From NCBI GenBank assembly GCA_001782235.1, contig MFOC01000007.1, positions 86,799 through 150,798 of the forward strand: a stretch of 64,000 nucleotides of DNA. Reading direction: 5' to 3'. The position numbers and the translations under genes were made by a program. The notes below the pieces were generated by a model, which made no database searches, was not told the DNA's origin, and saw only the letters and a list, made by a program, of their open reading frames with translations. Source of the stretch: Candidatus Levybacteria bacterium RIFCSPHIGHO2_02_FULL_40_18 (GTDB taxonomy: Bacteria > Patescibacteriota > Microgenomatia > Levybacterales > GWA1-39-11). This document shows positions 17,554 through 56,789 of this stretch, in pieces; the stretch's first letter is position 1; each line of letters begins with the position of its first letter.

Positions 17554-17583
17554 TTGACAAAAAGTTATCCACATCTTTATACT
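17554..17583 (+). promoter_or_regulatory. dnaA promoter (TTGACA-18-TATACT) with consensus DnaA box TTATCCACA in the spacer
   Basis: TTGACA at 17554-17559, TTATCCACA at 17565-17573, TATACT at 17578-17583. About 50 nt upstream of the dnaA ATG. Confidence 0.6.
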
Positions 17584-17631
17584 CAAACCCCGCGAGAATT
17601 ATTTCGCATCTTTGGGGCAACCCTATTTTTT

Positions 17632-22991: not shown

Positions 22992-25049
22992 CTATGAAGA
23001 AACTATTTTTATTCCTTGAGAGCTTTCATCTAGGTTGGCTTGCGAAATTTTTTCTTGCTCTTGAACGGGAGACGTGTTAGCAGGGGGGGCTGTCATATCT
23101 TGCGCCTGTGTCTCTGGTTGCTCTCCGGGAGCGGATTGAGCGTCAGCGATGGAGGCATCCTCGCTGACAGGCGTGGGCGACGTAGCGGTGGCTGCCTCTT
23201 CTTCATGGGCAAGAATATCTTGAGGTTTTGAGGTGATCAGATCATATTCATATTGTGACGCTATGAACTGCGCGGTTACATGGTTTTGTCCTGCAAAAAG
23301 AAGTCCTTCCCCAACCTGGGCGGTTACTAAAAATTGTTTCTCTCCTTCTGATAAAAATAACGTTTTTGCCAAAACTTCAACTTCTGACGAGTTCTGTTTC
23401 AAGAGAATTTGGACTGAGGAGTTTGAAAGAATAGACTTTCCATAGTCGCTTGACAGGAAATCTTCAATATCCTGAGTAAGGGTTGTCACGCCAAGAAAAT
23501 ATTTTCTTGCGCGCTTTGCTATCCCTTGCAAAAAGGAGGCAGAATCAGGATGCTTCATAAGATACCATGCCTCATCAACCACCAAAATTCTTTTCTTAAG
23601 TTTTGTTCTGACGCGATTCCAAATAAAATCTAAAACCACGTGCATTGCAATTGGACGCAAAACATCCTCGAGCTGTTTAAGAGAAAAGACGGTTAATTGA
23701 TTTTTTATGTTGTAATTCGTCTGCTGATTAAATAGCCCAGAGAATCCACCTTTTACATATTTTTCAAGACGGAAAGAGAGATCCCTTGCCTCCGGCTCCT
23801 CCATATTAAGTAAGGTTTTATAAAGGTCCTCCAAGATCGGCGGCTCGTTTTTGTAGGTTGCAGGATCCGGCGTTATTCCCTTTTGCTTGTAACAAAGAAC
23901 AATCGCTCTATCTAAAATTGCCTCTTGTGTTGGAGACATCTCCCCAAGCATTGTTTTTAGGAGTCCGTGAAGAGATAATATTTTTATTCCAAGCTGGGCA
24001 TCTGTCATGTCTTCTTGGAGAAGGGCAAACGGGTTAATTTTTACCTCAGAACTTTTTGAGAAGTTTATATATTCGCCATCCAAAGCATGACATAAGGTTT
24101 TGTATTCATCTTCGGGATCTATTATTAAAATCTCGGCGTCAAACATCATTTGCCGCAAAATTTCAAGCTTTACCAAAAAAGATTTTCCGGCGCCCGATTT
24201 TCCAAAGACCACTTCATTTGCATTCTCAAAAGAAAAGCGGTCAACAATCGCAAGCGAATTATTTATGGTATTCACGCCATATAGAATTCCGTTTGGATGG
24301 GAAATTTCATAAGACGTAAATGGAAAAGTTGAAGCCAAAGACGTTGTGTCCATATTGCGGGTTATAAATAGCTTGTCGATTCCTGCTGGAAGACAGGTTT
24401 TGAATCCGTCTTCCATCTGAAGCGTTGCGGGTTTTACAACCAAAAGGTTTGAGGAAAGCAAAGACTGAAGTTCTTTGGTTTTTATATCTAAATTCTCAAC
24501 TGAATCTGCTGCCAGGGTTATATATAGACCAAATTGGAAAAACCGTTCAAGACCTCGCGCTAGCTCTTCTCGGAGCGCTATAGCATCTTCAAGCCCCGCC
24601 TGAATTTTAGGATCCGGCTCAAGCCCCTGTTCCGCATCTGACTGAAGTGTTGCCTCCATCTCGGAGATTTTCCTTCGCAGGTTTCCCAAAACATCCTTGC
24701 TTTCAACCGGATATACAAACATTGATATGTTCATTGTTTCTTTATAGTCAATAAGAATTGAGAGCCAGTTTGGAGAAACCTGACGAGGGTAATCTACAAC
24801 AAAAAACGTTCTGAAAAACTTATCGCCAACTCTTATATTTTTAAAATCTACCTCAACTGAGGAGGGGGATATAAGGTCAACAACAGAAACCGAGCCTGAC
24901 TTGAGAGCATTATATCCTTGCGAGGAGGCGCGTTTTTGAGCAGGCCCCGCACCGTCCCGGTGCGGGGCAGGGACTTTCTGGATCTGAGCGTTAGCGGCGG
25001 TTGGATCCGATATAGCCTGTGTCTGTTGTTTTTTATCTTCATCAAACAT
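22992..25049 (-). CDS. VirB4/TrbE/CagE-family type IV secretion ATPase (ATPase body)
   Basis: Walker A FGKSGAGKSF, Walker B ILVVDEAWYLM, and N-terminal FFVVDYPRQVSPNWLSIL CagE_TrbE_VirB-like segment. Confidence 0.75.
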   Translation of the reverse strand: MFDEDKKQQTQAISDPTAANAQIQKVPAPHRDGAGPAQKRASSQGYNALKSGSVSVVDLISPSSVEVDFKNIRVGDKFFRTFFVVDYPRQVSPNWLSILIDYKETMNISMFVYPVESKDVLGNLRRKISEMEATLQSDAEQGLEPDPKIQAGLEDAIALREELARGLERFFQFGLYITLAADSVENLDIKTKELQSLLSSNLLVVKPATLQMEDGFKTCLPAGIDKLFITRNMDTTSLASTFPFTSYEISHPNGILYGVNTINNSLAIVDRFSFENANEVVFGKSGAGKSFLVKLEILRQMMFDAEILIIDPEDEYKTLCHALDGEYINFSKSSEVKINPFALLQEDMTDAQLGIKILSLHGLLKTMLGEMSPTQEAILDRAIVLCYKQKGITPDPATYKNEPPILEDLYKTLLNMEEPEARDLSFRLEKYVKGGFSGLFNQQTNYNIKNQLTVFSLKQLEDVLRPIAMHVVLDFIWNRVRTKLKKRILVVDEAWYLMKHPDSASFLQGIAKRARKYFLGVTTLTQDIEDFLSSDYGKSILSNSSVQILLKQNSSEVEVLAKTLFLSEGEKQFLVTAQVGEGLLFAGQNHVTAQFIASQYEYDLITSKPQDILAHEEEAATATSPTPVSEDASIADAQSAPGEQPETQAQDMTAPPANTSPVQEQEKISQANLDESSQGIKIVSS

Positions 25050-25845: not shown

Positions 25846-25880
25846 TACTAATTTCCATTTTCCAATAACTATTTTCTAGT

Positions 25881-26954
25881 CTATGCTGTTGCTTGGACTC
25901 CGCCGAATAGTTCGCGTCTTAGTTTCTCACGTGCGTCGATTGACGTAGTTTCTAGTGGATTAAAAATCTCGCCGTTCAAAGTAATTTCCGTTGCTTCAAA
26001 TTCATGATTTTTCTGTGGGTCCTCAAAATAGATTTTATAGGTGCCGTTTTGAAGCTGAGTAGCAGAGGCAAATTGTCCAAGAGCATTTGTTTTAAAGGCC
26101 CTAACCGGAATGCCGTTTGAGTCAATTACCTCAACTAAAATATTAGGCAAGGTTTTACCTCGTGCATCACGGATAATTCCAAGCACTACATTGGGGACAT
26201 CGGGTAGAGTTGGAAAGCCTCCGGTAAGGCTTGGATTTGCACGCACAGGGGTTGGCTGTGGCAGAGTTGTTTCTTTTGGAATTTCATGCCGAGTTTCCTT
26301 CATTGAAAATTCAGCGTCCCCAGCCTCTTTTTTGGGGACAGGCGGGGGGCGTTGAGCTTCCTTTGCGATTTCATCAAGTCTTTTTTTGTTCAGCTCCGAA
26401 GCCGTGTTTTCTTGATTTACCACCATAGGACTTCCTAAAACCGGCGGAGTAGAGACCGCACTTGATCCGTTTGTAAAATAGCTATTGATGGTGTCCAATA
26501 TGCGAGTTTCTGATTGATCCGGACGGAAAGGAGAATTTCTGAGTCTGCTTAATAAAACTGCTCTTTTTTCATCTTGTGGATTCGCAACCTTTGCTATCCC
26601 GCCTTGGCGGGGGGCACCTTGCTTTTTGGGAAGCTCGCCAAACACTTGAAACGTTGCCAGATTTGCACCCCTTTTTCTATATAGATAGCGATTTTCAGAA
26701 GGAATTGCTTTTGCAAAGTTGACGAGCATTACATCCATTGGTCTTCCTTCAATTGGAACAAATGCAAGAGCAACTCCTACAAGCGCAAAAGCCGCCATAG
26801 TTGGAGCTTTAATTAAAATATTGATTGGAAGTACAAAAGCAACAGTTGTTAAAATTCCAAATCCGAGAAGATATAAAAATTGCTTTACAGTAATGCTTCC
26901 AATGAGTTTAAACTTGAAACCCGTAACATCTTGCGGAATAGGGTGATTTTCCAT
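25881..26954 (-). CDS. VirB3/PrgI-like membrane protein with Pro-rich linker and C-terminal Ig-/transthyretin-like domain
   Basis: Two N-terminal TM helices immediately upstream of VirB4, which is the VirB3 position. The C-terminal domain (TLPNILVEVIDSNGIPVRAFKTNALGQFA..) looks CarboxypepD_reg-like. Confidence 0.4.
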   Translation of the reverse strand: MENHPIPQDVTGFKFKLIGSITVKQFLYLLGFGILTTVAFVLPINILIKAPTMAAFALVGVALAFVPIEGRPMDVMLVNFAKAIPSENRYLYRKRGANLATFQVFGELPKKQGAPRQGGIAKVANPQDEKRAVLLSRLRNSPFRPDQSETRILDTINSYFTNGSSAVSTPPVLGSPMVVNQENTASELNKKRLDEIAKEAQRPPPVPKKEAGDAEFSMKETRHEIPKETTLPQPTPVRANPSLTGGFPTLPDVPNVVLGIIRDARGKTLPNILVEVIDSNGIPVRAFKTNALGQFASATQLQNGTYKIYFEDPQKNHEFEATEITLNGEIFNPLETTSIDAREKLRRELFGGVQATA

Positions 26955-28539: not shown

Positions 28540-31500
28540 TTCAATTCACATGAATTGGCAGTAGCAGGTCCTGCCACAAGACAACCGCGACAAGGGCGGA
28601 AAGAAGAGCAAGCACCCCCAGGATCGGAAACTGTTTTAAAAGTTCGGAAAAGCGCATTCTTAAGAGAAGAAACATCAGGTACTCGTGTAAGAAGCATTAG
28701 AGGACGAGAACGCGGAATCCAGTCAGAGTGGGTTTCTTTAGATGAACATATAAAAGAAGAGTATCGAATTTTTCTAAAAGACCATGCTGAAGGTTTATTA
28801 AGGCTTTACAACAACCACCAAGAAATCCTCCAAAGCGAACCTCACAGACACGATGAGGAATTATTCAACATGTTTACATCTGAGAGAAGAAACGCAGACG
28901 GTACCATTAAGAAAATAATAGATGAACAAAAAATTGAGGGCTTCTTAAAAAAACCGGAAGGATGGATGGTAACAACGCAATTACTTGAGCATCAAACCGC
29001 AATGCAATTGTTTGCGTTAGGGTTGCACGCAGCTGCTAATCCTCAGGGAGAAAGAAATGCTTTGGGTGGTAAGGTAACTATTCCACTTGGAATAGATCAG
29101 GGTATTTTAAACAGGCTTGGGAGGGAAGTGGTAGAAGGTTTAAGACTTAATGAGTTTGCTGCTACCTTTGGAGGAAGAAGAGGGGAGGCAAGAATTTTGG
29201 GCTTAATTAGGGCTCCCTGGGCAGATAATTTAAGGCGATGGCATGTAGCAGGAATAACGGGCGGTGCATCCGCTTTGGGAATAGCAGGCACCGCAATGCT
29301 TGGACCGGAGGCAATGATTGGAGCAGGTATTGCCCCATGGGCATTTCAATGGCTCCAAGCCTCAATTGGCACTGGTGTTCAGGTTGACATGAGGCAGTGT
29401 AGCGCAGCTTTTCAGGCAATAAGAACGAATCCCACAGAGGTTGAATATGTAAAAGAAGTTTTTGGAGTAGATATGCGAGATTTTGTCGATCTTGGCTATA
29501 ATCAAATCGGCCTAGCACCACATAGAGCGGTGGGAGGCAATCTTGAAACCTATACAGACGTAAACAATCTGAGAAATAATGCCGTAGGAAATATAATTAC
29601 GCGCATGGAATTCTACACCAAAATTGGTGTTCCGCTTGAGAAGCTTGATGCCTTACCCGAGCAATTTCTATATTTATATACTAACCAACAGGAGCAAACC
29701 GGAACCGAATGGCAGAGAAGAATTCAAGAAGTCTTCCTTCCGAATGCCGGAGGCATCAGAGACATAAATGGTAATAACATTGAAACTGCTCCCGGAGTTC
29801 CCAATCCGGCTTTTGACGCCAACAATTTGGATTTTGCCGGAAACATCTCAAGATACATGGATGCAAGAAGACAGATAATGGTAGGAATGGTACGGGATAT
29901 GATTCAAGAAGAAAGAAGTGCGGCGGCTTCTTTAGATCAATCAAAGCAAGCAATTACCCAAATGATAACAGAGAGAAGATCTGAAGGTTATAGACAAAGA
30001 AGAACAGAAAGACTGGGTCAAGAAAGAACAAGACTCGAAGCCTATAGAAATATTTTAGATGGGCAGACAGGTGCATTCACTATATATAACCAAACAATAA
30101 CGGAGCTTAATGAAGAGAGAACAAATCTTGCGACCGAACTTTCAAGGACTTTTGCAGGAGCATTTGGAGGAGATGTTGATGCTGCTTTAACCTCGGCCAG
30201 AAGTATTTTATCGACGCCTGGAACTACCATAACTATTAATGGAAATGTAATTGCTTCTACTCGTCAGAGATTTACAGATCTTGATGCCTGGAGGTCAACA
30301 GAGATAGCCGATATAAAAAATCACAGACCAGCACATTTAGACCCGACAGACGATGAGTATCCAGTATGGGTTCAATCAGAGAGAGAAAGAATACTTAGCG
30401 ATTATCAGAACCAGAAAGCTGATATTCAAGCAGATGTAAATATAATCAACCAGCAGATTGAAAATCTTGAGGGGTTTAGAACTAGAGTTACAGTAGCTGA
30501 AAGGCGGCTTGAGAACAACGAAGAGGGACAGCCATCAAGGATTCTCATTCAACAACTCGAGGGTTGGGAGAGGGATCGCGCTCAAATTACTGGTTGGGGC
30601 ACGCCTGCTAATGTTTTGGATAATGCGTTTTTAGCTAGCGGCGATATAGATGCGATTATGGCAAGAATTAACACTGCTAATGCTGCTACTCCCGCAAACG
30701 GTTGGCCGGAGGCAAGAAATAATGATCCGGCTTATAGAACTCGAGTTTTTCAAGCAGTTCTTGAGTCAAGAGCTCAAGTAGCAGAAGCAGCTGACACAAC
30801 AAGAGCAGCAAGACTTCCTGATTATGTCATTATAACTAACCCTGCAGTATGGAATATTAGTCAGAATGAGTTAAGACACATGACTCCTGCCGATTTAACA
30901 GCCGCACTAACAGCAAGGGCCCCGGCATTAGGGGGAATACCAATTCCAAATCCAGCTCAAATTGAAAACGCTATTCGTGAAGCACAAAATAGAATTCAAG
31001 TTAGATTAGGAGCTATCACAGAGCAAACAAGAATTACTGACGAAGCGATAGAAAACAGAAGGTTCCAAATAGAAGGCGTTAACTTTGATGATGAGATCAG
31101 ACAACTTGAAACAGCATTAACTTTGCTTAATCGACAGCCGGATATTATTGCAGGACGCCCGACTCGTGAGAATCGTGCTACATTTACCGACAGGACTGTT
31201 ATGGCAGGAGATACAACATATTCACAATCTGAAAGAGACGTAGGTTCTGTCAGGGGCTATTATGAATTTATGAATCTCCTCTTTAATTATAGAGAAAGAG
31301 GCGTAGTTGAGGGAGTGGACCGCGACGAATATTTTAGAAGAATTTCTCAAGTTTTACCACCAGCAAGATTAGGGCAATTACTAAATGAAGCTTTGGGATT
31401 GGGAGGTTCCGGAATAAATCTCAATACTGTCTTAGCAAGACTTGATGCAAGACTTGCCTCAGGACAAATAAACGACAGAGATATGGTAAGGGTTTTATTC

Positions 31501-31545
31501 AATGTAATAGAAAGAAATAGACTTGAGGCTCTTGCCCTAAGTTAA
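28531..31545 (+). CDS. giant hypothetical protein (1004 aa), island-specific
   Basis: One central hydrophobic Gly/Ala-rich stretch (AGITGGASALGIAGTAMLGPEAMIGAGIAPWAF) and extensive coiled-coil-like Gln/Asn/Arg-rich regions. No recognisable catalytic motif. Confidence 0.6.
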   Translation: MVQFNSHELAVAGPATRQPRQGRKEEQAPPGSETVLKVRKSAFLREETSGTRVRSIRGRERGIQSEWVSLDEHIKEEYRIFLKDHAEGLLRLYNNHQEILQSEPHRHDEELFNMFTSERRNADGTIKKIIDEQKIEGFLKKPEGWMVTTQLLEHQTAMQLFALGLHAAANPQGERNALGGKVTIPLGIDQGILNRLGREVVEGLRLNEFAATFGGRRGEARILGLIRAPWADNLRRWHVAGITGGASALGIAGTAMLGPEAMIGAGIAPWAFQWLQASIGTGVQVDMRQCSAAFQAIRTNPTEVEYVKEVFGVDMRDFVDLGYNQIGLAPHRAVGGNLETYTDVNNLRNNAVGNIITRMEFYTKIGVPLEKLDALPEQFLYLYTNQQEQTGTEWQRRIQEVFLPNAGGIRDINGNNIETAPGVPNPAFDANNLDFAGNISRYMDARRQIMVGMVRDMIQEERSAAASLDQSKQAITQMITERRSEGYRQRRTERLGQERTRLEAYRNILDGQTGAFTIYNQTITELNEERTNLATELSRTFAGAFGGDVDAALTSARSILSTPGTTITINGNVIASTRQRFTDLDAWRSTEIADIKNHRPAHLDPTDDEYPVWVQSERERILSDYQNQKADIQADVNIINQQIENLEGFRTRVTVAERRLENNEEGQPSRILIQQLEGWERDRAQITGWGTPANVLDNAFLASGDIDAIMARINTANAATPANGWPEARNNDPAYRTRVFQAVLESRAQVAEAADTTRAARLPDYVIITNPAVWNISQNELRHMTPADLTAALTARAPALGGIPIPNPAQIENAIREAQNRIQVRLGAITEQTRITDEAIENRRFQIEGVNFDDEIRQLETALTLLNRQPDIIAGRPTRENRATFTDRTVMAGDTTYSQSERDVGSVRGYYEFMNLLFNYRERGVVEGVDRDEYFRRISQVLPPARLGQLLNEALGLGGSGINLNTVLARLDARLASGQINDRDMVRVLFNVIERNRLEALALS

Positions 31546-31901: not shown

Positions 31902-32210
31902 CTATCTTGGGGCGAGCTGCCCTACGCCCGTGATTTGGGATATGGCGTTAAGGAAGAAAAATGAGAGAAAGATAAATATCAGACCAGCAAGCGCATAGAC
32001 TAAAGTTTTCCTAGCGCTTGATATCTTTTCAGGATCCCCTTCTGACATAACATATTTATATCCTGCATAAATTATCATAAAAACCGATACAATACCCGCA
32101 ATTACAATAAGGGCATTGATGATATTTTGAAGAACCACAGGGATACACGAAAGAGTTGCGACGCCCTCAGGGCTAACACAACTTCCCCAATCAGAAATAA
32201 TATCAAACAT
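31902..32210 (-). CDS. T4SS pilin-like protein (VirB2/TrbC-like, paralog 1)
   Basis: Two hydrophobic helices flanking the conserved YAGYKYVMSEGDPEKISSARKTLVYALAGL motif shared by four paralogs. Confidence 0.55.
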   Translation of the reverse strand: MFDIISDWGSCVSPEGVATLSCIPVVLQNIINALIVIAGIVSVFMIIYAGYKYVMSEGDPEKISSARKTLVYALAGLIFIFLSFFFLNAISQITGVGQLAPR

Positions 32211-32260
32211 ATATATATTTTATAGATAACCTAATCTTAAAATCAATAAAGAAGGTTTTG

Positions 32261-32659
32261 TTATTTGAATTCAGGGAGGGTGAGGATCTTGAGATTTCTT
32301 AGGTCTCCAAGTCCAAGAGCCTGAAGCACAACATTTATAATGACAAAAGAAAGAGCTATTATAATAAGACCTATTACTGCGGCAATTATATGATTTCTTG
32401 CATCTGCAACTTTTTGTTTGTCTCCGCCTGATGTGATCCACTGAAATGCCCCAATGACTATAAAAAGAAGTGCCGCCAAAAAGGCTATAACTATTATAAA
32501 GGCAACCAAAAACCCTACCACTTGGCCAATGGTTGTTTCAGGAGGAATAACAGTTGCGCCCGCGGGAGTTTTGACTCCGGCATCTATCGCGGCAAAAGCA
32601 GGTGCGGCAAGTGAGGAATAAGAAATTAGAGCGAAGGCACCTGATAATATCTTTCTCAT
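32261..32659 (-). CDS. T4SS pilin-like protein (paralog 2, with signal peptide)
   Basis: Signal peptide ...AAPAFAA, then ...GAFQWITSGGDKQKVADARNHIIAAVIGLIII. Confidence 0.55.
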   Translation of the reverse strand: MRKILSGAFALISYSSLAAPAFAAIDAGVKTPAGATVIPPETTIGQVVGFLVAFIIVIAFLAALLFIVIGAFQWITSGGDKQKVADARNHIIAAVIGLIIIALSFVIINVVLQALGLGDLRNLKILTLPEFK

Positions 32660-32698
32660 AAATTAATTAGAGCATGTTTCAAACCCTTTGTCAATAGT

Positions 32699-33034
32699 CT
32701 ATGGATTAACAACTGTTTTAACACCAAACGCGCCTGCTACGAGATTTACAAAGACAAGCGCCAATGACATAACTATTAATCCAAATATCGCATAGATAAC
32801 TATTCTTCTTGCTTTATCCCATTTTTGCTTGTCCCCGGACGCTTGTAGCCAATAAAAACCCCCATAAACAATATAGAATAGAGAAAGAAAAATTCCAATA
32901 ATTAGCGCTAGTTGAATGAAAAAAGATGCAATATTGCCTATTGTAAATTGAGGTCCGGTAGGAATACCGGGAGGCGCCTCAATATCAACTTGGCCTCCGC
33001 CTGAACCCGGTACTTTTAATGATAAATATCTCAT
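32699..33034 (-). CDS. T4SS pilin-like protein (paralog 3)
   Basis: ...YGGFYWLQASGDKQKWDKARRIVIYAIFGLIVM. Confidence 0.55.
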   Translation of the reverse strand: MRYLSLKVPGSGGGQVDIEAPPGIPTGPQFTIGNIASFFIQLALIIGIFLSLFYIVYGGFYWLQASGDKQKWDKARRIVIYAIFGLIVMSLALVFVNLVAGAFGVKTVVNP

Positions 33035-33171
33035 ATTAGAAATTGGTTATTAATAATTAGAAAATAGTTCAGAAATTAGAAATTAGAAATTGGTTCTTGA
33101 TTTTTAACTATTTTCTATTCTCTATTTTCCATTACCATTTTCCATTCTCCTATAACTATTTTCTAATATAT
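33035..33171. repeat. palindromic intergenic element (family copy 2)
   Basis: TAGAAATTGGTTCTTGATTTTTAACTATTTTCTATTCTCTATTTTCCATTACCATTTTCC is nearly the exact reverse complement of copy 3. Confidence 0.65.
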
Positions 33172-34569
33172 TTAGCGGGTGATTCCTGGTATTTTCAAAA
33201 TATCAACTCCTATTATCTCAAGTATAACAATTGAGAAAATGATGAACAACAATCCTACGACTGCAGAAGTTATCGTTTCCCTTGCTCCTGCGATTTTCTC
33301 TTTATCCCCTCCTGACGTTATTAATATATAGCCTGAGTAGATTATTATTATGATTGCCCCAAATCCCGCAATTGTTAATATAAATCTAAAAATTGTCTCA
33401 ATGAATCCTTTTGGAGTGACATTAATTGGTCCGATTGCCGAATTTATGGTTTTACAGTCACCAGGGCGAAGATTAATATCACCTTCCCCACTTCCACAAG
33501 GCAGTATTGCACCGGGAGCAACCTTATTTAACGCCGCAAGGTCTTTAAGAAAGGTACGATACTCCTCGCCTTTGGGATCTTGTCTATAATGCAGGGGATC
33601 ATCACATGTTCCACCTTCCTTATTATTAGCTGATGTGATTATGCATGTTGCTTCATAATATGTAAATCCACCTTTACAACCAGGTGGGTTTGGAACTGAA
33701 GGAAATACGCTGACGCTTACCCAAGCCCATGCGGTTGGGTTATCATCATCAACCTGTTCTCTTACAGTTATTGTGTATTTTCCAGCGGAAAGTTTTTGAA
33801 ACTCAATTCTTTTTCCACTCTCATTCTCGCTCGTAAAGGCAAGACATCCTCCCTGTCGGTAACCATTGTTTCCAATCATCAAAATTTGGTAGTTATTCCT
33901 TCTCCACCCTCCAGGCCTGAACGAATTATTAATGGCATTGCCTAGATTTACGGTGATTGTTGCGCCAGGTCTCAAGTCTGTACCAGGATAGATTGATAGA
34001 GAAGGATAAGTTCTATGAACATAAAAACCTCCTATTTTAATTGGTTTGTAATAGGCATCTTTTATTAGGGTTCCGATACTCAGCGCATAGACATTCCCAC
34101 CATGAAAATAGACAGTGCCACCACAGTCAGTTTTGACCTTGCTACTTCCTGCTCCGCATACCCCCTTAACAGTTACATTGCCTTTGCTATCTGATTTTAG
34201 CCCTAAGATAAAATTGTCCAATATATCTGGGCCGTTTATCCCAGGTACAAATCCTTCTTCTCTAAGACATGCGCTGTCTCCCGTACAAATTATATAACCA
34301 GACTTATCACTCTCAAGTCCATAAAAAGTAATATCAATTATTTTATCTGCTTCATCAAGACATTCAGGTCGCTCGCTTGTTGAAAATTCAACGTCTGTTC
34401 CCTCAAGAATTGTCTCAGTGGGAGAAGGACTTGTCTGACATGGATCAAGCTGGGCAAAAGCAGGAGTTTTGAAAAGTAAAAATATCGCGGCGAAGAGGAA
34501 GGACGCGGTTAATATAAGAAGCTTCTTCATATATTTATGATAGGCAGAAGGAGTAGGGGAAGTCAACAT
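33172..34569 (-). CDS. extended pilin: secreted Cys-rich ectodomain (about 380 aa) fused to C-terminal pilin-like domain (paralog 4)
   Basis: Signal peptide, more than 20 Cys in the ectodomain, C-terminal ...YSGYILITSGGDKEKIAGARETITSAVVGLLFII. Flanked by near-identical inverted repeats. Confidence 0.6.
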   Translation of the reverse strand: MLTSPTPSAYHKYMKKLLILTASFLFAAIFLLFKTPAFAQLDPCQTSPSPTETILEGTDVEFSTSERPECLDEADKIIDITFYGLESDKSGYIICTGDSACLREEGFVPGINGPDILDNFILGLKSDSKGNVTVKGVCGAGSSKVKTDCGGTVYFHGGNVYALSIGTLIKDAYYKPIKIGGFYVHRTYPSLSIYPGTDLRPGATITVNLGNAINNSFRPGGWRRNNYQILMIGNNGYRQGGCLAFTSENESGKRIEFQKLSAGKYTITVREQVDDDNPTAWAWVSVSVFPSVPNPPGCKGGFTYYEATCIITSANNKEGGTCDDPLHYRQDPKGEEYRTFLKDLAALNKVAPGAILPCGSGEGDINLRPGDCKTINSAIGPINVTPKGFIETIFRFILTIAGFGAIIIIIYSGYILITSGGDKEKIAGARETITSAVVGLLFIIFSIVILEIIGVDILKIPGITR

Positions 34570-34572
34570 CCG

Positions 34573-34723
34573 CTAGAAATTAGTTATTAATAATTAGAAA
34601 ATAGTTGTTGGAAAATGGAAATTAGTAATGGAAAATAGAGAATAGAAAATAGTTAAAAATCAAGAACCAATTTCTAGTTTCTAATTTCCGAACCATTCTC
34701 TAATTTCCCATAACTACTTTCTG
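34573..34723. repeat. palindromic intergenic element (family copy 3)
   Basis: GGAAAATGGAAATTAGTAATGGAAAATAGAGAATAGAAAATAGTTAAAAATCAAGAACCAATTTCTA, inverted relative to copy 2. Confidence 0.65.
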
Positions 34724-36040
34724 CTACTCTGTGAGTTTGTAGCCGCGGCCTTTTATGGTTTGGATAGAATTAGGATTATTGGGATCATCTTCTATTTTCT
34801 TTCGTAAGCGATAAATTATTTGATCAAGGGCTTGGTCTGTTACACCTTCTTGAGTTTTAGTGTCTTTCCAGACATTTGAGATTATTTCGTCTTTTTCACA
34901 TACCCGCCCTTGGTTTTGAAGCAAAAATCTAAGTAGTCTAAACTCCTGCGGAGAAAGAATTTCGGTTAAGTTTTGATCTCCCTTGAGGATCTCATTGCGC
35001 TCCTGATCATAAGACAATCTTGGGGAGGTGGGGGTTAAAGTTTTTAGGTATGTGTCGAACAATGGAATAACGAGTTTGCCATCACGGGTTAGTCCTGCCT
35101 TTTCTAAAAATTCATTTTTATTATTTGCTTTTATATCCTTCTTTTCTTCCGGTGTCAGGAAATTCCATATCTCTGAAAGCGCGCTCCTAACCTGTGGTTT
35201 TAACAGTAAGACTTCGGATAATCGGCTGTTGGCTGTTGGCTGTTGGCTATTGGCCAGGGTAGCTTCATAACAAATTCGTGCGAGTTTTCCGTGGCCGCCG
35301 GTCAGTTTTATAATTTCACTTTTAATTCTTTCATCAGCCGACTTTCCCGAAATTTCTTCAAGATGCTTGAATCGAAATTCTAGTCCCACCTTATCATAAA
35401 GCGAAAGATATACTATGTTACCGATTAAAAACTCAGAGAATTCGGCATAAATAGAAGATTCTAAAACCTCCTCGATTGGACGCGTTATGCCAAAAACAGC
35501 AGTAAATCTATACTTTGCGCGGTTTCGAAGAATCTTTAAGTTAAGAAAAAAGGAAGAGTCAATATTTTGTACATATTCCTCAAAACGGTCCAGCAGAAAA
35601 ACAATATTTAATTCGCATTCATTTGCAAGATAGTCTATAGCTTTTTTTAAGTTTTGAGAAAAGACCATCTCATCGGAGAATTTAAGAGCGTCTGAGAGAA
35701 ATTTATTAACAACCGACTCTTCTTCTTTTAATCTTCTTTCGCCAAAAGAGGAAGCAATAGAGATTAAGATAAATTTTAATATGTCGGAAAGGGACCTTTT
35801 GGCTACTTCTGAGAAGTCCATATAAACAAAATGATAAGAAGATTCCCTTTTACCTAAGTGGAGCTCCCGGACCGTTCTATTATAAGGAAGTAAACGAAGC
35901 GCGTTGCTTTTCCCTGTGCCCGGTAGCCCAATTACCTGACAGGATTTGCCCGATGATACGAATTCGATAATTTTGGCGATCTCAGCCTTTCTTGTTTCTT
36001 TTGGGTATAGGCTCTCAAAATGAGAAGGCTCGATAATCAT
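34724..36040 (-). CDS. AAA-type ATPase fused to C-terminal OmpR/PhoB-type winged-helix DNA-binding domain (candidate island regulator)
   Basis: Walker A GLPGTGKSNAL near the N-terminus. The C-terminal LSPQEFRLLRFLLQNQGRVCEKDEIISNVW...ALDQIIYRLRKKIEDDPNNPNSIQTIKGRGYKL matches trans_reg_C. Confidence 0.6.
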   Translation of the reverse strand: MIIEPSHFESLYPKETRKAEIAKIIEFVSSGKSCQVIGLPGTGKSNALRLLPYNRTVRELHLGKRESSYHFVYMDFSEVAKRSLSDILKFILISIASSFGERRLKEEESVVNKFLSDALKFSDEMVFSQNLKKAIDYLANECELNIVFLLDRFEEYVQNIDSSFFLNLKILRNRAKYRFTAVFGITRPIEEVLESSIYAEFSEFLIGNIVYLSLYDKVGLEFRFKHLEEISGKSADERIKSEIIKLTGGHGKLARICYEATLANSQQPTANSRLSEVLLLKPQVRSALSEIWNFLTPEEKKDIKANNKNEFLEKAGLTRDGKLVIPLFDTYLKTLTPTSPRLSYDQERNEILKGDQNLTEILSPQEFRLLRFLLQNQGRVCEKDEIISNVWKDTKTQEGVTDQALDQIIYRLRKKIEDDPNNPNSIQTIKGRGYKLTE

Positions 36041-36103
36041 AGAAAATAGAAAATAGTTATTAGAAAATAGACAATGGTTCGGAAATTAGAAAATAGAAAT
36101 TGG
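36041..36103. repeat. purine-word half-element (family copy 4, left arm)
   Basis: AGAAAATAGAAAATAGTTATTAGAAAATAGACAATGGTTCGGAAATTAGAAAATAGAAATTGG. Confidence 0.55.
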
Positions 36104-36532
36104 TTAACGATCATGGTAATTCTTCCAAGATTTCTTAAGATTCGTTAGTTGCTTACAGGAGATTATATATAAATTTATGACTTCGTTGCAAAGTTTAGGA
36201 TCGACGTATTTACTATAAACATCTATGCATACTGATAAATGATTTATCATTTCGTAACATTCACCTATCGTATCATCTATATATTTACTCCATGCTTTTT
36301 TCTGATATCTTTTGGCAAACCCCTCAGCAAGTATGGCTGGTCCTGCTTTGCAACTACGTCTCATTTGATCAACAAGATCAAACTTCTCTTCCTTCGGTAG
36401 ATTAGTAATTATTTCCTTCAATACTGTGACCATTGCCTTATATAAATTTTGGTACACCTCAAGATCTTGAAAAGTTCTGATTGGCTTTTTCTTTCTATTT
36501 TCCATTTTCAAATATCTATTACCATTTTCCAC
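36104..36532 (-). CDS. four-helix-bundle protein (23S rRNA intervening-sequence protein family)
   Basis: FQDLEVYQNLYKAMVTVLKEIITNLPKEEKFDLVDQMRRSCKAGPAILAEGFAKR matches the TIGR02436-type pattern. The first about 12 codons are read from repeat-element sequence, so the true start is probably internal. Confidence 0.55.
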   Translation of the reverse strand: MENGNRYLKMENRKKKPIRTFQDLEVYQNLYKAMVTVLKEIITNLPKEEKFDLVDQMRRSCKAGPAILAEGFAKRYQKKAWSKYIDDTIGECYEMINHLSVCIDVYSKYVDPKLCNEVINLYIISCKQLTNLKKSWKNYHDR

Positions 36533-36560
36533 TTTCCTACAACCATTTACAATTATCAGA
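36485..36560. repeat. pyrimidine-word half-element (family copy 5, right arm)
   Basis: TTTCTTTCTATTTTCCATTTTCAAATATCTATTACCATTTTCCACTTTCC, the inverted partner of copy 4 across the four-helix-bundle gene. Confidence 0.55.
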
Positions 36561-36627
36561 CTTCTGTTACGCTGCTGTTAGGTTAATATCAAGTATCCTA
36601 AGCTATATTCTTGTAAACTTGCGCCAT

Positions 36628-41344: not shown

Positions 41345-41495
41345 TAGTATTTAGAAATTGGTTTTTGGACAATAGAAATTAGTAATAGAAAATAGAGAAT
41401 AGAAAATAGAAACAAATACTATTCTCCAAGTTCAAATTTCCATAACCATTTTCCAATTTCTTACAACTATTTTCTAATAAGTCTATTTTTAGTAT
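41345..41495. repeat. palindromic intergenic element (family copy 6)
   Basis: AGAAATTAGTAATAGAAAATAGAGAATAGAAAATAG is near-identical to the copy 3 core. Right arm ...CCATAACCATTTTCCAATTTCTTACAACTATTTTCTAAT. Confidence 0.6.
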
Positions 41496-42535: not shown

Positions 42536-42565
42536 TTTGCACCTTGAACAACCAGCCCAATTAAG

Positions 42566-42700
42566 CAGAAAATAGTTAATAGATAATAGAAAATAGTAAT
42601 GGAAGTTGGAAAATAGAAAATAGATTAAATACCAATTTCTAATATCTAATTTCCATAACTAATATCTAATTTCTAACAACTAATTTCTGTAATTTAGAAT
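42566..42700. repeat. palindromic intergenic element (family copy 7) forming the nrdR 5' leader
   Basis: GAAAATAGTTAATAGATAATAGAAAATAGTAATGGAAGTTGGAAAATAGAAAATAG ... CCAATTTCTAATATCTAATTTCCATAACTAATATCTAATTTCTAACAACTAATTTC. Confidence 0.6.
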
Positions 42701-48461: not shown

Positions 48462-48499
48462 CTTACAAACGCTGCTTCGTGCGAAGCCGCGTTTGACGC

Positions 48500-54371: not shown

Positions 54372-56789
54372 CTAAATGGAGCCGCCAGGTCCGAGCCTTC
54401 CTTCTGGGCCTTTGTCAACGCTTGATTGAATATCGCCAAGCACTTCGTATAATCGCGATCTCTTAGCAATTTCTGCCTCAACCAATTCTTTTTGTTTTCC
54501 GTATTTGAGTCTTGATAATTCTCTAATTAATTCTGCGACTCTTGGATTTTCAAGCTTTTTCTCGGCAACCAAATCTCGAGTTAAGTCCAATGAAAATGGC
54601 GTGGTAGGCTCAGAATTAATCAGAGTTTTTACGTATGCATGGAATCTTTCAACATTAATTAAATCCGCTTCGTTAAACACCGGTTGAAATTCATGTTGCA
54701 GGTAATTTGCATCAGAAACTCCTACCCGAAATGAAATTAATGTTCCGACATTTCCAAAGATTGCGTTTTTAACATCCTCCTCAATTTGACCGATAAACTG
54801 GTTCGCAACCGTTAGGTTTAATCTATATTTTCGGGCCTCTGACAAAATTTGTCCAAAATCGGGAGTCGCAAAATTCTGAAACTCATCAACGTAAAGATAG
54901 AAATCCCTACGTTGGTCTTGCGGCACATCTTGCCTTGACATTGCTGCGGCAAGAATTTTTGGAACCAAAATTAAACCCAAGAAGGAGGAATTATCTTCTC
55001 CAATTTTTCCTTTGGCAAGAGAGATAAGTAAAATCTTTCCCTGGTCCATAACTTCTCGCAGTGAAAATGCGCTTTTTGATTGCCCTATGATATTTCTCAT
55101 CATGCGGTTTGTGACAAAGCGGCCGAATTTTGAAACTATATAATCCAACACCTCAGACTTATGAAAATCTGAGGTTTGCGCAATCTGATCAGTCCAGTAG
55201 CGGCGAACAATTGGATCTTGAACTTTCGGCAAGAGCTCCTGCACAAAGGAAGAATCGGTTAGGACTCGGACAACCTCAACAAAAGTATTCCCCGGCTCTG
55301 ACATAACAGTGTACATGGCATTTCTTATAGCATGCTCAAAACGCGGTCCAATAATGCCAGTTTTATTAGGATCATATAATTTGTACATAAGTCCTATTAT
55401 TGACGTAATTATTAGGTCTTTTTGCTCTTCGGTTTGAACGTCCAACATGTTTAGTCCCATTGGGCGTTCCGTGTCTCCCGGATCAAAAAGAATTACGTCT
55501 TCTGCGCGCTCCGGAGGAATGAGAGGCAAGAGCATATCGATTGTGTCATGAGGATCAATAAAACAAACTCCATATCCAGCGCGAATGTCTTGTAAGATCA
55601 TGTCTTTTAAAAATTCTGATTTTCCTACGCCTGTCTTACCTATAATATACATATGACGGCGTCTGTCATCCTCCCCGATATAAACAGGCCGCGAGATCCC
55701 GCGATAAATGCTTTTCCCAGTGTATAATCCGGCGGAAGGAATATTTGCGGGTGCAGGCGCGACTCGGGCACCTAGCCAATGGATAGCAGGTGTCTCAACC
55801 GTTTTATTTGGAAAATGAAAAATTGTTGCAAGTTCATCTGTTGTTAAAACTCCGGGGTTGTTTGGCACAAGCGGAAGTTGACGATAGATAAAATCAATCA
55901 TTGCCATTCCCTTAAACAATCTATGCTTCACTTTTTCAAAGGAGTTAAAAGAAGAGAACTGTGAGAATGAGCCCACAATATTTGTAAGATGTGCTTCTGC
56001 GGATTCCTTTGTTGAAGAAGCAGTAAGGATTCTAACATGCGTTTCAAATCCGGGCTTTGTAATCTTTTGCTCAATTGCCTCAAGTTCTTTTTGATCAACC
56101 GAGTATTTTGCAGTTTCAGGATTCGCCTCTCTCTTTTTAGTGGTTGTAATGTATGATCGGCCGCTTTTTTTCCAAGCGTCGCCGGTAAGGGTTATCAAAA
56201 TTTGTAAAGCCGCAGCTTCTCCTTCCTGCATTTTTCCTAATGTGCTTGTAATTGATGAAAGAGGATCAACCGGAAGATCCTTATAGGTTTTTATTGGAAG
56301 ATAATGAGCTTTTGAGAGCTTTAGTTGTGCGTAGGCGATTTTACCTGGATTTTCAAAAAGATTATATTCTTCAACCTGAAGAATCTGCGCGTCTGGATAG
56401 CTTCCATGAATCTGCTTTTCAACCATGTCGCGAAGCCTATTTGGCACGCCAACATAAAATCTTATATCTTGAGGTTTTGCGACTATTTCAAAAGATATAA
56501 TGTCGGGAACTTTAAGAAATCCAAAAATTCCCTTAGTTCCTGCGATTGAAGTAAGACCTGAGAATAATTGATCTGCAGCGTCTATTTTTATCTCGTTTTC
56601 GCGTGGGAGTGATACCTCAAGAAGAGATGAGTCAAGAGCCTTCTCGTGTCTTTCTTGGGATTTTCGCCAAAACCCTAATGCCAAAAAAATCCCTAACAGG
56701 CACGCAATAACTACGGATGCCATTAAAAAGGCTAGGAGAAAAACAAAGACTAGATTAATAATGGCTTGCGAAAAAGCATCAAGCTGCAC
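54372..56789 (-). CDS. VirD4/TraG/TraD-like type IV coupling protein (FtsK/HerA-fold ATPase)
   Basis: N-terminal TM helices, Walker A MYIIGKTGVGKSEF and Walker B FYLYVDEFQNFATP. About 800 aa, typical of T4CPs. Confidence 0.65.
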   Translation of the reverse strand: MQLDAFSQAIINLVFVFLLAFLMASVVIACLLGIFLALGFWRKSQERHEKALDSSLLEVSLPRENEIKIDAADQLFSGLTSIAGTKGIFGFLKVPDIISFEIVAKPQDIRFYVGVPNRLRDMVEKQIHGSYPDAQILQVEEYNLFENPGKIAYAQLKLSKAHYLPIKTYKDLPVDPLSSITSTLGKMQEGEAAALQILITLTGDAWKKSGRSYITTTKKREANPETAKYSVDQKELEAIEQKITKPGFETHVRILTASSTKESAEAHLTNIVGSFSQFSSFNSFEKVKHRLFKGMAMIDFIYRQLPLVPNNPGVLTTDELATIFHFPNKTVETPAIHWLGARVAPAPANIPSAGLYTGKSIYRGISRPVYIGEDDRRRHMYIIGKTGVGKSEFLKDMILQDIRAGYGVCFIDPHDTIDMLLPLIPPERAEDVILFDPGDTERPMGLNMLDVQTEEQKDLIITSIIGLMYKLYDPNKTGIIGPRFEHAIRNAMYTVMSEPGNTFVEVVRVLTDSSFVQELLPKVQDPIVRRYWTDQIAQTSDFHKSEVLDYIVSKFGRFVTNRMMRNIIGQSKSAFSLREVMDQGKILLISLAKGKIGEDNSSFLGLILVPKILAAAMSRQDVPQDQRRDFYLYVDEFQNFATPDFGQILSEARKYRLNLTVANQFIGQIEEDVKNAIFGNVGTLISFRVGVSDANYLQHEFQPVFNEADLINVERFHAYVKTLINSEPTTPFSLDLTRDLVAEKKLENPRVAELIRELSRLKYGKQKELVEAEIAKRSRLYEVLGDIQSSVDKGPEGRLGPGGSI

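What the first reader, a model, noticed from the sequence alone, without database searches (positions are those of the whole stretch)
31902..34569. Pilin paralog array with an invariant SGGD/EGD-x-x-K core, including a 465-aa Cys-rich extended form
Four adjacent genes share YxGxxWxxSGGDxxKxxxARxxIxxAxxGLxI between two hydrophobic helices. Three are minimal pilins (102-132 aa, one with a cleavable signal peptide). The fourth carries a ~380-aa ectodomain with more than 20 cysteines ahead of the pilin domain, which is what one expects of a tip adhesin or minor pilin.
Basis: seen in the sequence. Interest (0 to 1): 0.55.

Follow-up and report, generated by a model that had tools for sequence, protein, structure and literature searches.

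The report
T4SS pilin cassette with adhesin-bearing pilin
Four neighbouring genes in a Levybacteria (candidate phyla radiation) chromosome encode the predicted pilins of its type IV secretion system, a kind of array already described, but one of them carries a fast-evolving, disulfide-rich surface domain fused to the pilin, which has not been described and may be how these uncultured bacteria recognise their hosts.

Summary
Four minus-strand genes (31902-34569) share a 70-column gap-free helix-loop-helix core. Three pass Pfam PF18895 (T4SS_pilin) and the 465-aa protein falls just below the cut-off. It has 12 cysteines, not more than 20, and its mature ectodomain is about 345 aa.

The genes lie about 7 kb from VirB4- and VirB3/PrgI-like genes and close to dnaA/dnaN. 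This is the chromosomal VirB2-like pilin array of Patescibacteria, already published in 2023 and 2025.

What appears new comes from 82 related loci:
- **Fixed cassette.** The order is long pilin, then about 111 aa, about 141 aa and about 104 aa. Each position is its own orthologous class (best cross-genome hit at the same position in 49-52 of 52 arrays).
- **Variable ectodomain.** Only the first gene's ectodomain varies. There are 32 unrelated sequence clusters among 83, on a pilin anchor that stays 57-60% identical.
- **Ectodomain properties.** It is Cys-rich, and in the window it is modelled as two Fn3/macroglobulin-like β-sandwiches.

Best reading (inferred): a heteromeric T4SS filament whose class-1 subunit is a minor or tip pilin that displays a target-binding module. 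No filament has been seen, and homology to classical VirB2 is not demonstrable here.

The parts
33172..34569 (-). Class-1 'extended' pilin (465 aa as ORF; probably 452 aa from M14 at 34530). It consists of a signal peptide, a Cys-containing β-rich ectodomain and a C-terminal T4SS_pilin hairpin.
   Evidence: ORF. PF18895 at 24.7 bits against a cut-off of 26.6; the identical database protein P0001 is pre-annotated PF18895. AF2 pLDDT 82.5. About 50 full-length homologues.
34453..34530 (-). Predicted Sec signal peptide of the extended pilin (residues 14-39, MKKLLILTASFLFAAIFLLFKTPAFA|Q).
   Evidence: Hydrophobic segment 13-39. Helix 8-32 in the model. An SP-like segment is present in 48/52 position-1 proteins. 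The cleavage site is read from the sequence and was not predicted by a dedicated tool.
33415..34452 (-). Ectodomain (residues 40-385): a Pro/Ser/Thr-rich linker, two tandem β-sandwich domains (about 60-175 and 176-285) and a small α/β neck (about 298-385). It carries 12 Cys.
33175..33414 (-). Pilin domain of the extended protein (residues 386-465): helix 1, the loop TSGGDKEKIAGARE, helix 2, and the class-specific tail GVDILKIPG.
   Evidence: Helices 386-418 and 423-458. Alignment. Class consensus.
32699..33034 (-). Class-2 pilin, 111 aa, with no signal peptide. It is the most divergent class.
   Evidence: PF18895 at 33.3 bits. Position-2 class: 0/52 with an SP-like segment and 39% mean identity. 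Positional orthology 49/52.
32261..32659 (-). Class-3 pilin, 132 aa, with a cleavable-looking Sec leader (AFA|A).
   Evidence: PF18895 at 36.7 bits. Positional orthology 50/52. Orthologue P0197.
31902..32210 (-). Class-4 pilin, 102 aa, leaderless, with a conserved two-cysteine N-terminal loop (C11...C22-IP).
   Evidence: PF18895 at 41.2 bits; weak PF04956 TrbC/VirB2 match at E 2.3e-4. Two Cys in the N-tail in 60/68 class members. Positional orthology 50/52.
34724..36040 (-). Putative dedicated regulator: an N-terminal P-loop/AAA-like region plus a C-terminal OmpR/PhoB-type winged helix. It lies directly upstream of the cassette on the same strand.
   Evidence: PF00486 at E 9.5e-23. A homologue sits immediately upstream on the same strand in 39 of 66 related loci that have enough upstream sequence. 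Same arrangement in L001 and L002.
33035..33171 (.). Intergenic palindromic repeat copy IG-A, between the extended pilin and the class-2 pilin.
   Evidence: 130-nt inverted repeat with 34593-34722, 88% complementary, with a 52-nt exact core. Hairpin z-score -4.5.
34570..34723 (.). Intergenic palindromic repeat copy IG-B, between the regulator and the extended pilin.
   Evidence: Hairpin z-score -5.5. The same element type occurs at five other intergenic sites in the window.
25881..26954 (-). PrgI/VirB3-like T4SS membrane protein with a C-terminal CarboxypepD_reg-like β-sandwich.
   Evidence: PF12666 at 30.5 bits against a cut-off of 27. Homologues lie downstream of the pilin cassette in 33 related loci.
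22992..25049 (-). VirB4-like T4SS ATPase.
   Evidence: PF19044 at E 7.4e-34, plus AAA_10 and CagE_TrbE_VirB.
54372..56789 (-). Coupling-protein-like (VirD4/TraG-D type) ATPase, 20 kb from the cassette.
   Evidence: PF12696 at 25.4 bits (cut-off 22) and PF10412 at 24.0 bits (cut-off 20.5).

Best explanation
The four genes are the pilin cassette of the chromosomal, origin-proximal type IV secretion system of a Candidatus Levybacteria (Microgenomatia, Patescibacteria) genome. Each product has a two-helix membrane hairpin of the PF18895 family. The helices are joined by a short basic loop (GD-x-x-K...AR).

By the positive-inside rule, and by analogy with VirB2/TraA, that loop faces the cytoplasm while the protein is in the membrane. 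It would line the lumen once the subunits are extracted by the VirB4 ATPase and stacked into a filament or channel.

The four genes are not interchangeable variants. They are four old, position-specific classes, which implies a division of labour. Classes 2-4 would be short structural subunits; which one is the major subunit is unknown. Class 1 is a minor subunit whose N-terminus, which would lie on the outside of such a filament, carries a Sec-exported, disulfide-stabilised module. In this genome that module is two Fn3/macroglobulin-like β-sandwiches plus a neck.

This module evolves much faster than its anchor and is replaced by unrelated modules in related genomes. It is therefore most likely the part that contacts the target (host) cell surface, either at the tip, as the first subunit incorporated, or sparsely along the shaft. 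In that role it would stand in for the VirB5 or adhesin components that the 2025 survey of Patescibacterial T4SSs rarely or never found. The upstream AAA/wHTH protein probably controls the operon.

Shown here: family membership, topology features, context, positional orthology and ectodomain variability. Inferred: filament formation, tip or minor-subunit location, and binding function.
For: Family and context:
- PF18895 hits for all four genes.
- Gap-free 70-column core with invariant GD..K...AR.
- Hairpin helices in the AF2 model.
- VirB4-like and PrgI-like genes 7-9 kb away, a T4CP-like gene at 54 kb, and dnaA/dnaN at 17.5-20.2 kb.
- The same gene order in L001 and L002. PrgI, TraC-like and VirB4 homologues lie downstream of the cassette in 33, 31 and 17 related loci.

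Positional classes:
- Exactly four same-strand pilin ORFs in 46 of 61 loci with enough flank.
- The best hit in another array is at the same position in 52/52, 49/52, 50/52 and 50/52 cases.
- Each class has its own features: SP in 48/52 at position 1 and 0/52 at position 2, and a two-Cys N-tail in 60/68 of class 4.

Ectodomain as a variable exposed module:
- 32 unrelated clusters among 83 class-1 proteins, while the pilin domain stays 57-60% identical.
- In close pairs the small pilins and the anchor are 94% identical but the ectodomain only 46-50% (L026/L027). For window versus L001 the figures are 75%, 82% and 35%.
- dN in the ectodomain is 5-13x that of the anchor.
- Cys density is 2.8 per 100 aa against 0.38 in background, and the number is even in 81%.
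- Tandem β-sandwich fold.

Literature:
- In F-type pili the N- and C-termini are outside and the inter-helix loop is in the lumen (PMC5018250).
- Both leaderless and SP-bearing VirB2-like pilins form pili in monoderm archaea (PMC9905601).
- Patescibacterial pilin arrays exist and are essential in S. epibionticum (PMC10633639, PMC12102498, PMC12857230).
Against: - No pilus has been seen in any Patescibacterium; the literature calls it a possibility only.
- Homology to classical VirB2 is not demonstrable here. PF04956 is below its cut-off (21.7 against 27.9 bits). hhalign against five annotated VirB2 proteins gives P = 0.28. There is no sequence hit to solved pilins.
- Gene-wide dN/dS in the ectodomain is below 1 (0.09-0.20) and dS is saturated, so positive selection is not shown.
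- The loci were collected with the class-1 protein as bait, so the frequency of the cassette outside Levybacteria-like genomes is unknown.
- VirB6 was not detected in the window.
Confidence: 0.5

Rival explanations
1. The array is a set of alternative major pilins kept for antigenic or host-range variation, as proposed for Bartonella and Anaplasma and suggested for Patescibacteria in the 2025 survey. On this view the long protein is just one more variant.
For: The paralogues are only 24-39% identical. That matches the 25% average reported for such arrays, for which the authors propose adaptation to different host strains (PMC12102498).
Against: The four genes are position-specific orthologous classes conserved across 52 arrays. 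They have class-specific leaders, tails and cysteines. Lineage-specific amplification would instead make paralogues within a genome each other's closest relatives. Positions 3 and 4 are 73-94% identical between the close genome pairs compared, so they are not hypervariable.
Confidence: 0.12
2. No extended pilus is made. The hairpins are membrane-embedded parts of the T4SS channel, or a short stub crossing the wall. The class-1 protein is a surface protein that uses a pilin-type hairpin merely as a C-terminal membrane anchor. Its β-sandwich stalk reaches through the peptidoglycan and S-layer to hold or sense the host.
For: Gram-positive-type T4SSs, to which the Patescibacterial VirB4 is related, generally lack pili. 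The ectodomain is a stalk-like tandem β-sandwich. The neighbouring PrgI-like protein also carries a β-sandwich (CarboxypepD_reg) extension. No filament has been observed.
Against: The class-1 hairpin is the most conserved of the four (58% mean identity). It keeps all family-invariant loop residues and has a conserved C-terminal tail. That is more constraint than a simple anchor needs. The strict 1+3 cassette linked to VirB3/VirB4 implies co-assembly. Pilins are essential in S. epibionticum.
Confidence: 0.28
3. The extended-pilin gene is a phase-variable, invertible cassette. The 130-nt inverted repeats on both sides allow the 1.4-kb gene to flip and so be switched off, or exchanged by recombination.
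For: Inverted repeat arms 33038-33167 and 34593-34722 are 88% complementary with a 52-nt exact core. They are the most similar pair among all copies of this repeat in the window.
Against: The repeat is a genome-wide, self-palindromic intergenic element. It is also found next to ruvA/ruvB, nrdR and other genes (30 unit matches against 1.6 expected). No recombinase domain was found among about 60 window ORFs scanned with Pfam. Two independent assemblies carry the same orientation and an identical 13.4 kb. Most related loci have only 2-20 bp between genes 1 and 2.
Confidence: 0.05

Closest known systems
VirB2-like pilin arrays of Patescibacterial T4SS (Wang et al. 2023, Cell, PMC10633639; Quinonero-Coronel et al. 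2025, Microb Genom, PMC12102498)
   Same: PF18895 pilins in tandem near virB4 and prgI. The location is chromosomal and close to dnaA. Identity between paralogues is low. Arrays are reported as especially common in Microgenomatia. No relaxase was seen in the window.
   Different: The published arrays are described only as 2-11 variable small pilins. In S. epibionticum the six pilins have the domain within the first 99-180 residues, and the three with listed gene lengths are 126-138 aa. The following are not mentioned in those papers or in the review (word searches): the fixed four-class cassette, and a class whose pilin hairpin follows a variable 100-560-aa Cys-rich ectodomain.
Classical conjugative pilins VirB2 / TrbC / TraA (Pfam PF04956; F, pED208 and T pili)
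   Same: Small two-helix hydrophobic hairpin with a short basic loop. A signal-peptide-bearing precursor in two of the four. Encoded with VirB3 and VirB4 homologues.
   Different: Sequence relationship is weak and below the cut-off, and not significant by profile-profile comparison. Classical pilins have no large N-terminal domain. This is a monoderm host without VirB5, VirB7, VirB9 or VirB10.
Archaeal Ced/Ted DNA-import pili (CedA1, TedC; PMC9905601)
   Same: VirB2-like pilins working with VirB4-like ATPases in single-membrane cells. Both leaderless (CedA1) and SP-processed (TedC) subunits exist, as here. It is a chromosomal, domesticated T4SS without a relaxase. Import rather than export is a live possibility for nucleotide-auxotrophic Patescibacteria (PMC11665869).
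   Different: Those systems have one pilin type per pilus and no ectodomain-bearing subunit. No sequence similarity was tested or expected.
VirB5 tip protein and TraN mating-pair-stabilisation adhesin of Gram-negative T4SS (own knowledge, plus PMC12857230 for VirB5 at the tip)
   Same: Proposed role: a low-copy, surface-exposed component that contacts the target cell. TraN is likewise Cys-rich, with a variable specificity region.
   Different: The architecture is unrelated. VirB5 is a helical bundle and TraN is an outer-membrane protein. Neither contains a pilin hairpin.
Type IV pilus minor pilins with appended domains (e.g. CofB/TcpB, PilY1-associated sets; own knowledge)
   Same: The same logic: a pilin module for incorporation plus β-rich domains for priming or adhesion, with one copy per gene cluster.
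   Different: A different filament superfamily and assembly machine. There the pilin module is N-terminal; here it is C-terminal.

Membership tests
Pfam PF18895 T4SS_pilin | Score at or above the curated gathering threshold (26.6 bits) | tested here: met
   The 102-, 132- and 111-aa proteins score 41.2, 36.7 and 33.3 bits.
Pfam PF18895 T4SS_pilin | The same threshold for the 465-aa protein | tested here: inconclusive
   24.7 bits, E 2.5e-5, just below 26.6. The identical database entry P0001 and most homologues are pre-annotated PF18895.6. It aligns gap-free with the other three.
Patescibacterial VirB2-like pilin array (as defined in PMC12102498) | Two or more pilin genes in tandem, or separated by one non-pilin gene | tested here: met
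   Four consecutive genes separated by 39-137 bp.
Patescibacterial VirB2-like pilin array (as defined in PMC12102498) | Located near virB4 (within 20 CDS), with monoderm-type partners such as PrgI/VirB3 | tested here: met
   VirB4-like gene at 22992-25049 and PrgI-like gene at 25881-26954, five to seven genes away.
Patescibacterial VirB2-like pilin array (as defined in PMC12102498) | Chromosomal, often near dnaA/dnaN, and without a relaxase | tested here: met
   dnaA at 17554-18966 and dnaN at 19152-20249. No relaxase domain was found among about 60 ORFs scanned. The scan of small ORFs was not exhaustive.
Classical VirB2/TrbC pilin (PF04956) | Sequence membership (gathering threshold 27.9 bits) | tested here: not met
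   The best is the 102-aa protein at 21.7 bits, E 2.3e-4. The 465-aa protein scores 13.6 bits.
Classical VirB2/TrbC pilin (PF04956) | Profile-profile similarity to annotated VirB2 | tested here: not met
   hhalign of 208 Levybacteria-type pilin domains against five annotated VirB2 proteins gives P = 0.28. The alignment is in topological register. The VirB2 profile was narrow (Neff 1.9), so this is a weak test.
Classical VirB2/TrbC pilin (PF04956) | Polymerises with phospholipid into an extracellular tube | not testable with these tools
   Needs microscopy or biochemistry.
VirB5-type pilus tip protein | Elongated three-helix bundle with a globular appendage | tested here: not met
   The ectodomain is modelled as β-sandwiches. 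The similarity would be functional only.
Ig/Fn3-fold bacterial surface adhesins (invasin/intimin, MSCRAMM-like) | Tandem β-sandwich domains on the cell surface | tested here: met
Ig/Fn3-fold bacterial surface adhesins (invasin/intimin, MSCRAMM-like) | A recognisable ligand-binding head domain or a family-specific sequence signature | tested here: not met
Invertible (phase-variable) DNA segment | Inverted repeats flanking the segment | tested here: met
   130-nt arms, 88% complementary.
Invertible (phase-variable) DNA segment | Both orientations present in populations, and a nearby site-specific recombinase | tested here: not met
   Two other assemblies are identical and in the same orientation. 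No recombinase domain was found in the scanned ORFs. Read-level data were not available.

The most novel reading that the evidence does not exclude
Levybacteria and their relatives build a T4SS filament from four dedicated subunit classes. Its class-1 subunit is a previously unrecognised 'adhesin-pilin' chimera: a modular, rapidly exchanged receptor-binding domain fused directly to a VirB2-like hairpin. This subunit would prime or cap the filament, replace VirB5, and set host specificity. If so, ectodomain type could be used to predict or match the unknown hosts of uncultured Microgenomatia.
Probability: 0.3. Interest if true: 0.7.

Novelty: new variant of a known kind. Interest (0 to 1): 0.45.

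Why it matters
The T4SS and its pilins are essential for the epibiotic life of the only genetically tractable Patescibacterium, yet what the system does and how it touches the host is unknown. Microgenomatia have no cultured representative and no known hosts.

A conserved cassette in which only one subunit carries a swappable, exposed, disulfide-bonded module points to a concrete candidate for the host-contact determinant. It also revises the published view of these arrays as simple pilin 'variation'. In this lineage the arrays are four fixed classes, and the variability is concentrated in one ectodomain.

This is testable through co-occurrence analysis, structure prediction of complexes, and imaging of enrichments.

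Tried and rejected
- **Profile search of the pilin core against PDB sequences.** It returned only designed or irrelevant helical proteins at E >= 0.09.
- **hhalign against annotated VirB2.** Not significant.
- **Representative-library search with the four-domain profile.** It gave the family size: 65,034 clusters at E <= 1e-3. The top 150 hits were all multi-domain 'polypilins', so it could not give the fraction of ectodomain-bearing pilins.
- **AFDB Foldseek.** Not available.
- **dN/dS on the closest pairs.** dS was saturated above 1, so no statement about positive selection is possible.
- **Promoter and terminator scan.** Results were at background level.
- **Rfam.** Nothing matched at the intergenic repeats.
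- **Inverton idea.** I considered it because of the 130-nt inverted repeats. I largely set it aside because the element is genome-wide and no alternative orientation was found.
- **Lenient Pfam scan of neighbouring unknown proteins.** It gave nothing.
Full report
**What is there.** The flagged interval holds four minus-strand ORFs:
- 33172-34569, 465 aa
- 32699-33034, 111 aa
- 32261-32659, 132 aa
- 31902-32210, 102 aa

Their C-terminal parts align without a single gap over 70 columns: hydrophobic helix, short polar loop, hydrophobic helix. Pairwise identity is 24-39% and ten residues are invariant (I, I, GD, K, AR, A, GL).

An independent curated model, Pfam PF18895 'T4SS_pilin', hits all four. 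The small proteins score 41.2, 36.7 and 33.3 bits against a cut-off of 26.6. The long one scores 24.7 bits (E 2.5e-5), just below it. An HMM of the four finds no further copy in the 64 kb.

The long protein has 12 cysteines, not 'more than 20'. It starts with a Sec-type leader, and the first 13 codons are probably not used because they are gapped in 70% of homologues, so M14 at 34530 is the likely start. The mature ectodomain is about 345 aa. The 132-aa protein has a typical leader ending AFA|A. The 102- and 111-aa proteins have none.

**Context.** The window is chromosomal, with primase, sigma-70, ruvABC, dnaA, dnaN, RNR/nrdR, smpB/tmRNA and tRNAs. It is identical over 13.4 kb to GCA_001782635.1 (MFPG01000011.1) and to an ENA assembly. 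The closest relatives are Candidatus Levybacteria/Levyibacteriota MAGs.

T4SS genes in the window:
- a VirB4-like ATPase at 22992-25049, about 7 kb from the pilins
- a PrgI/VirB3-like protein at 25881-26954
- a coupling-protein-like ATPase at 54372-56789

dnaA and dnaN lie at 17.5-20.2 kb. No relaxase domain was seen among about 60 ORFs scanned.

This is the arrangement described by Quinonero-Coronel et al. 2025 (PMC12102498). They report a monoderm-type T4SS near the replication origin, usually without a relaxase. [quoted passage not shown] In Southlakia epibionticum the pilin series is essential (PMC10633639). A 2025 review calls a pilus a possibility only (PMC12857230). As a 'pilin paralog array', then, the finding is a new member of a published kind.

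**What the comparison adds.** I collected 82 related loci and searched their ORFs with the pilin HMM.

- **The cassette is fixed.** Among 61 loci with at least 2.5 kb downstream, 46 have exactly four same-strand pilin ORFs. They share a size pattern: long, then about 111 aa, about 141 aa and about 104 aa (52 canonical arrays).
- **Each position is its own orthologous class.** The best hit of a pilin in another array sits at the same position in 52/52, 49/52, 50/52 and 50/52 cases.
- **Each class has its own traits:**
  - Position 1 has a leader in 48/52 and a conserved tail IGvDIL-IPGf.
  - Position 2 never has a leader and is the most divergent.
  - Position 3 often has a leader.
  - Position 4 is leaderless, with a conserved 'GVATL-C-IP' N-tail carrying two cysteines in 60/68 members.
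- **This argues against interchangeable variants.** The pattern is not what tandem amplification for antigenic or host variation predicts. It argues for four distinct roles.
- **Conserved neighbours.** A homologue of the upstream AAA/OmpR-type wHTH protein (34724-36040) lies directly upstream on the same strand in 39 of 66 loci. PrgI, a TraC-like protein and VirB4 follow the cassette in most relatives. In this genome three extra genes are inserted between them (447, 1004 and 115 aa).

**The extended pilin.** It has about 50 full-length homologues at 30-50% identity. A further 35 or so proteins of 260-605 aa match only its last 20%, and do so at 45-69% identity. That is higher than its identity to its own neighbours (24-39%).

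Variability among 83 class-1 proteins:
- The region ahead of the hairpin ranges from 27 to 566 aa.
- It falls into 32 clusters with no detectable similarity to one another.
- The hairpin stays 57-60% identical whichever ectodomain precedes it.
- Some relatives carry CarboxypepD_reg or SdrD-B-type domains instead.

Rates in close genome pairs:
- L026/L027: small pilins and the class-1 hairpin are 94% identical, while the ectodomain is 46-50% identical.
- L008/L009: 93%, 96% and 74%, in the same order.
- Window versus L001: 75%, 82% and 35%.
- Non-synonymous divergence in the ectodomain is 5-13 times that of the hairpin. dS is saturated and gene-wide dN/dS is 0.09-0.20, so positive selection is not demonstrated.

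Cysteines: the ectodomains have 2.8 Cys per 100 aa against 0.38 in background ORFs, with an even number in 81%. In the window protein six cysteines are (nearly) invariant. This fits an extracytoplasmic, disulfide-bonded domain.

Structure:
- AF2 with 42 homologues gives pLDDT 82.5 for the whole protein and 84.1 (pTM 0.81) for residues 41-385.
- The model has a Pro/Ser/Thr-rich linker, two β-sandwich domains, a small α/β neck, and then two long helices (386-418 and 423-458).
- Foldseek finds tandem Fn3 pairs at E about 1e-6.
- This is a generic extracellular scaffold at 7-16% identity. It is 'adhesin-like' only in the loose sense.

**How it most likely works.**

Established for F-type pili: the pilin hairpin sits in the membrane with both ends outside. 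In the filament the inter-helix loop lines the lumen and the N- and C-termini are on the outer surface (PMC5018250). VirB2-like pilins also make pili in single-membrane archaea, with either unprocessed or leader-cleaved subunits (PMC9905601).

Read from the sequences here:
- The basic loop (K, K, R) between the helices fits a cytoplasmic, later lumenal, position.
- The Sec leader and the cysteines put the class-1 N-terminal module outside.

Inferred:
- VirB4 extracts the hairpins, and classes 2-4 build the body of a filament or channel.
- Class 1, one gene per cassette with a bulky module on the exposed N-terminus, is a minor subunit at the tip or scattered along the shaft.
- Its variable module contacts the target cell. 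It would fill the role of VirB5 or of adhesins such as PrgB; the 2025 survey detected no PrgB-type adhesin in its dataset and mentions VirB5 in only one genome.

I put about 0.9 on 'PF18895 T4SS pilin cassette' and about 0.5 on this mechanism.

Rival readings:
- **Anchor or stalk model (0.28).** There is no long pilus, and the hairpin serves only as an anchor or channel part.
- **Alternative major pilins for variation (0.12).** Positional orthology speaks against it.
- **Invertible cassette (0.05).** See the next section.

**Limits on 'VirB2-like'.** Direct homology to classical VirB2 could not be shown:
- PF04956 is below its cut-off (best 21.7 against 27.9 bits).
- There is no hit to solved pilin sequences.
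- hhalign of 208 Levybacteria-type domains against five annotated VirB2 proteins from Ti-type plasmids is not significant (P = 0.28). The alignment is in topological register, but the VirB2 profile was narrow.

The link therefore rests on the Pfam family, topology and gene context.

**Flanking repeats.** The extended-pilin gene is bracketed by a 130-nt inverted repeat (33038-33167 and 34593-34722) that is 88% complementary with a 52-nt exact core. A 33-nt direct repeat lies immediately upstream of the start codons of genes 1 and 2.

The element is built of TAGAAAWTRG units, which occur 30 times against 1.6 expected. It recurs at five other intergenic sites, including ruvA/ruvB and upstream of nrdR. 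Each copy is itself a long imperfect palindrome that would fold as a hairpin (z-scores -4.1 to -8.8). No Rfam family matches. It is nearly absent from related loci.

It is thus a lineage-specific, genome-wide intergenic repeat, not a pilin-specific switch. Two other assemblies show the same orientation. A role in recombination or regulation around the adhesin gene cannot be excluded.

**Novelty and verdict.** The array itself is already-known biology. I found no description of the fixed four-class cassette, or of the ectodomain-bearing class, in the following:
- the 2025 survey and its supplement
- the 2023 Cell paper (whose six pilins are all small)
- the 2025 review
- full-text searches

I therefore rate it a new variant of a known kind, of moderate interest. 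It offers a concrete, testable candidate for the host-contact determinant of an uncultured lineage, but every functional step beyond family, topology and comparative pattern is inference.

Noticed in passing
window 33035-33171, 34570-34723, 36041-36103, 36480-36560, 10000-10123, 25846-25880, 41345-41490, 42565-42700: A lineage-specific intergenic repeat of about 120-150 nt is built from TAGAAAWTRG units on one arm and their complements on the other (30 unit matches against 1.6 expected). Each copy folds as a long imperfect hairpin (z-scores -4.1 to -8.8). No Rfam family matches, and the element is almost absent from related Levybacteria loci. The two most similar copies flank the extended-pilin gene as a 130-nt inverted repeat.
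   Followed up: partly
proteins P0089-P0238 from the representative search (e.g. P0096, 395 aa; P0094, 1775 aa; P0112): 'Polypilins' are single polypeptides with 2-17 tandem PF18895-like hairpin domains. P0096 is a leader plus four complete pilin units. The family as a whole is very large: 65,034 clusters at 50% identity with E <= 1e-3. I did not check whether these are true fusions or read-through gene calls.
   Followed up: partly
window 28531-31545 (+) and 36481-39702 (+): Two proteins of about 1000 aa without any Pfam domain flank the pilin cassette. Counterparts of similar size occupy the same positions in L001 and L002. They could be T4SS-associated structural proteins or substrates. The first, together with a 115-aa and a 447-aa gene, separates the pilins from PrgI/VirB4 in this genome, whereas most relatives have them adjacent.
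   Followed up: partly
window 34724-36040 (-): This regulator has an unusual layout: a P-loop/AAA-like N-terminal region followed by a C-terminal OmpR/PhoB winged helix. It is conserved immediately upstream of the pilin cassette in 39 of 66 related loci. Its operator might be the repeat units in the adjacent intergenic regions.
   Followed up: partly
window 36104-36532 (-) overlapping 36481-39702 (+): A '23S rRNA intervening sequence protein' family gene (PF05635, E 3e-15) sits between the regulator and the large ORF. The mechanical 1073-aa ORF overlaps it by about 50 nt, and other assemblies call the large gene as 1006-1024 aa, so its real start is probably further downstream.
   Followed up: no
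window 31902-32210 (-), residues 11 and 22: The leaderless class-4 pilin has a conserved two-cysteine loop in its short N-terminal tail (two Cys in 60 of 68 class members). This implies that the tail is exported without a signal peptide and is disulfide-bonded.
   Followed up: partly
window 25881-26954 (-): The PrgI/VirB3-like protein is long (357 aa) and carries a CarboxypepD_reg-like β-sandwich at residues 257-314. It is therefore a second T4SS membrane component in this locus with an appended extracellular-type domain.
   Followed up: no
window 45704-45777 (+), 48499-48854 (-): An AdoCbl-II riboswitch lies just upstream of a cobalamin adenosyltransferase gene (45857-46408) and downstream of the ribonucleotide reductase gene. 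The tmRNA gene lies next to smpB (48875-49315).
   Followed up: no
window 54372-56789 (-): A coupling-protein-like ATPase (TraG-D_C and TrwB_AAD_bind, both just above their cut-offs) is encoded 20 kb from the T4SS core, next to a tRNA gene, although no relaxase was found.
   Followed up: no
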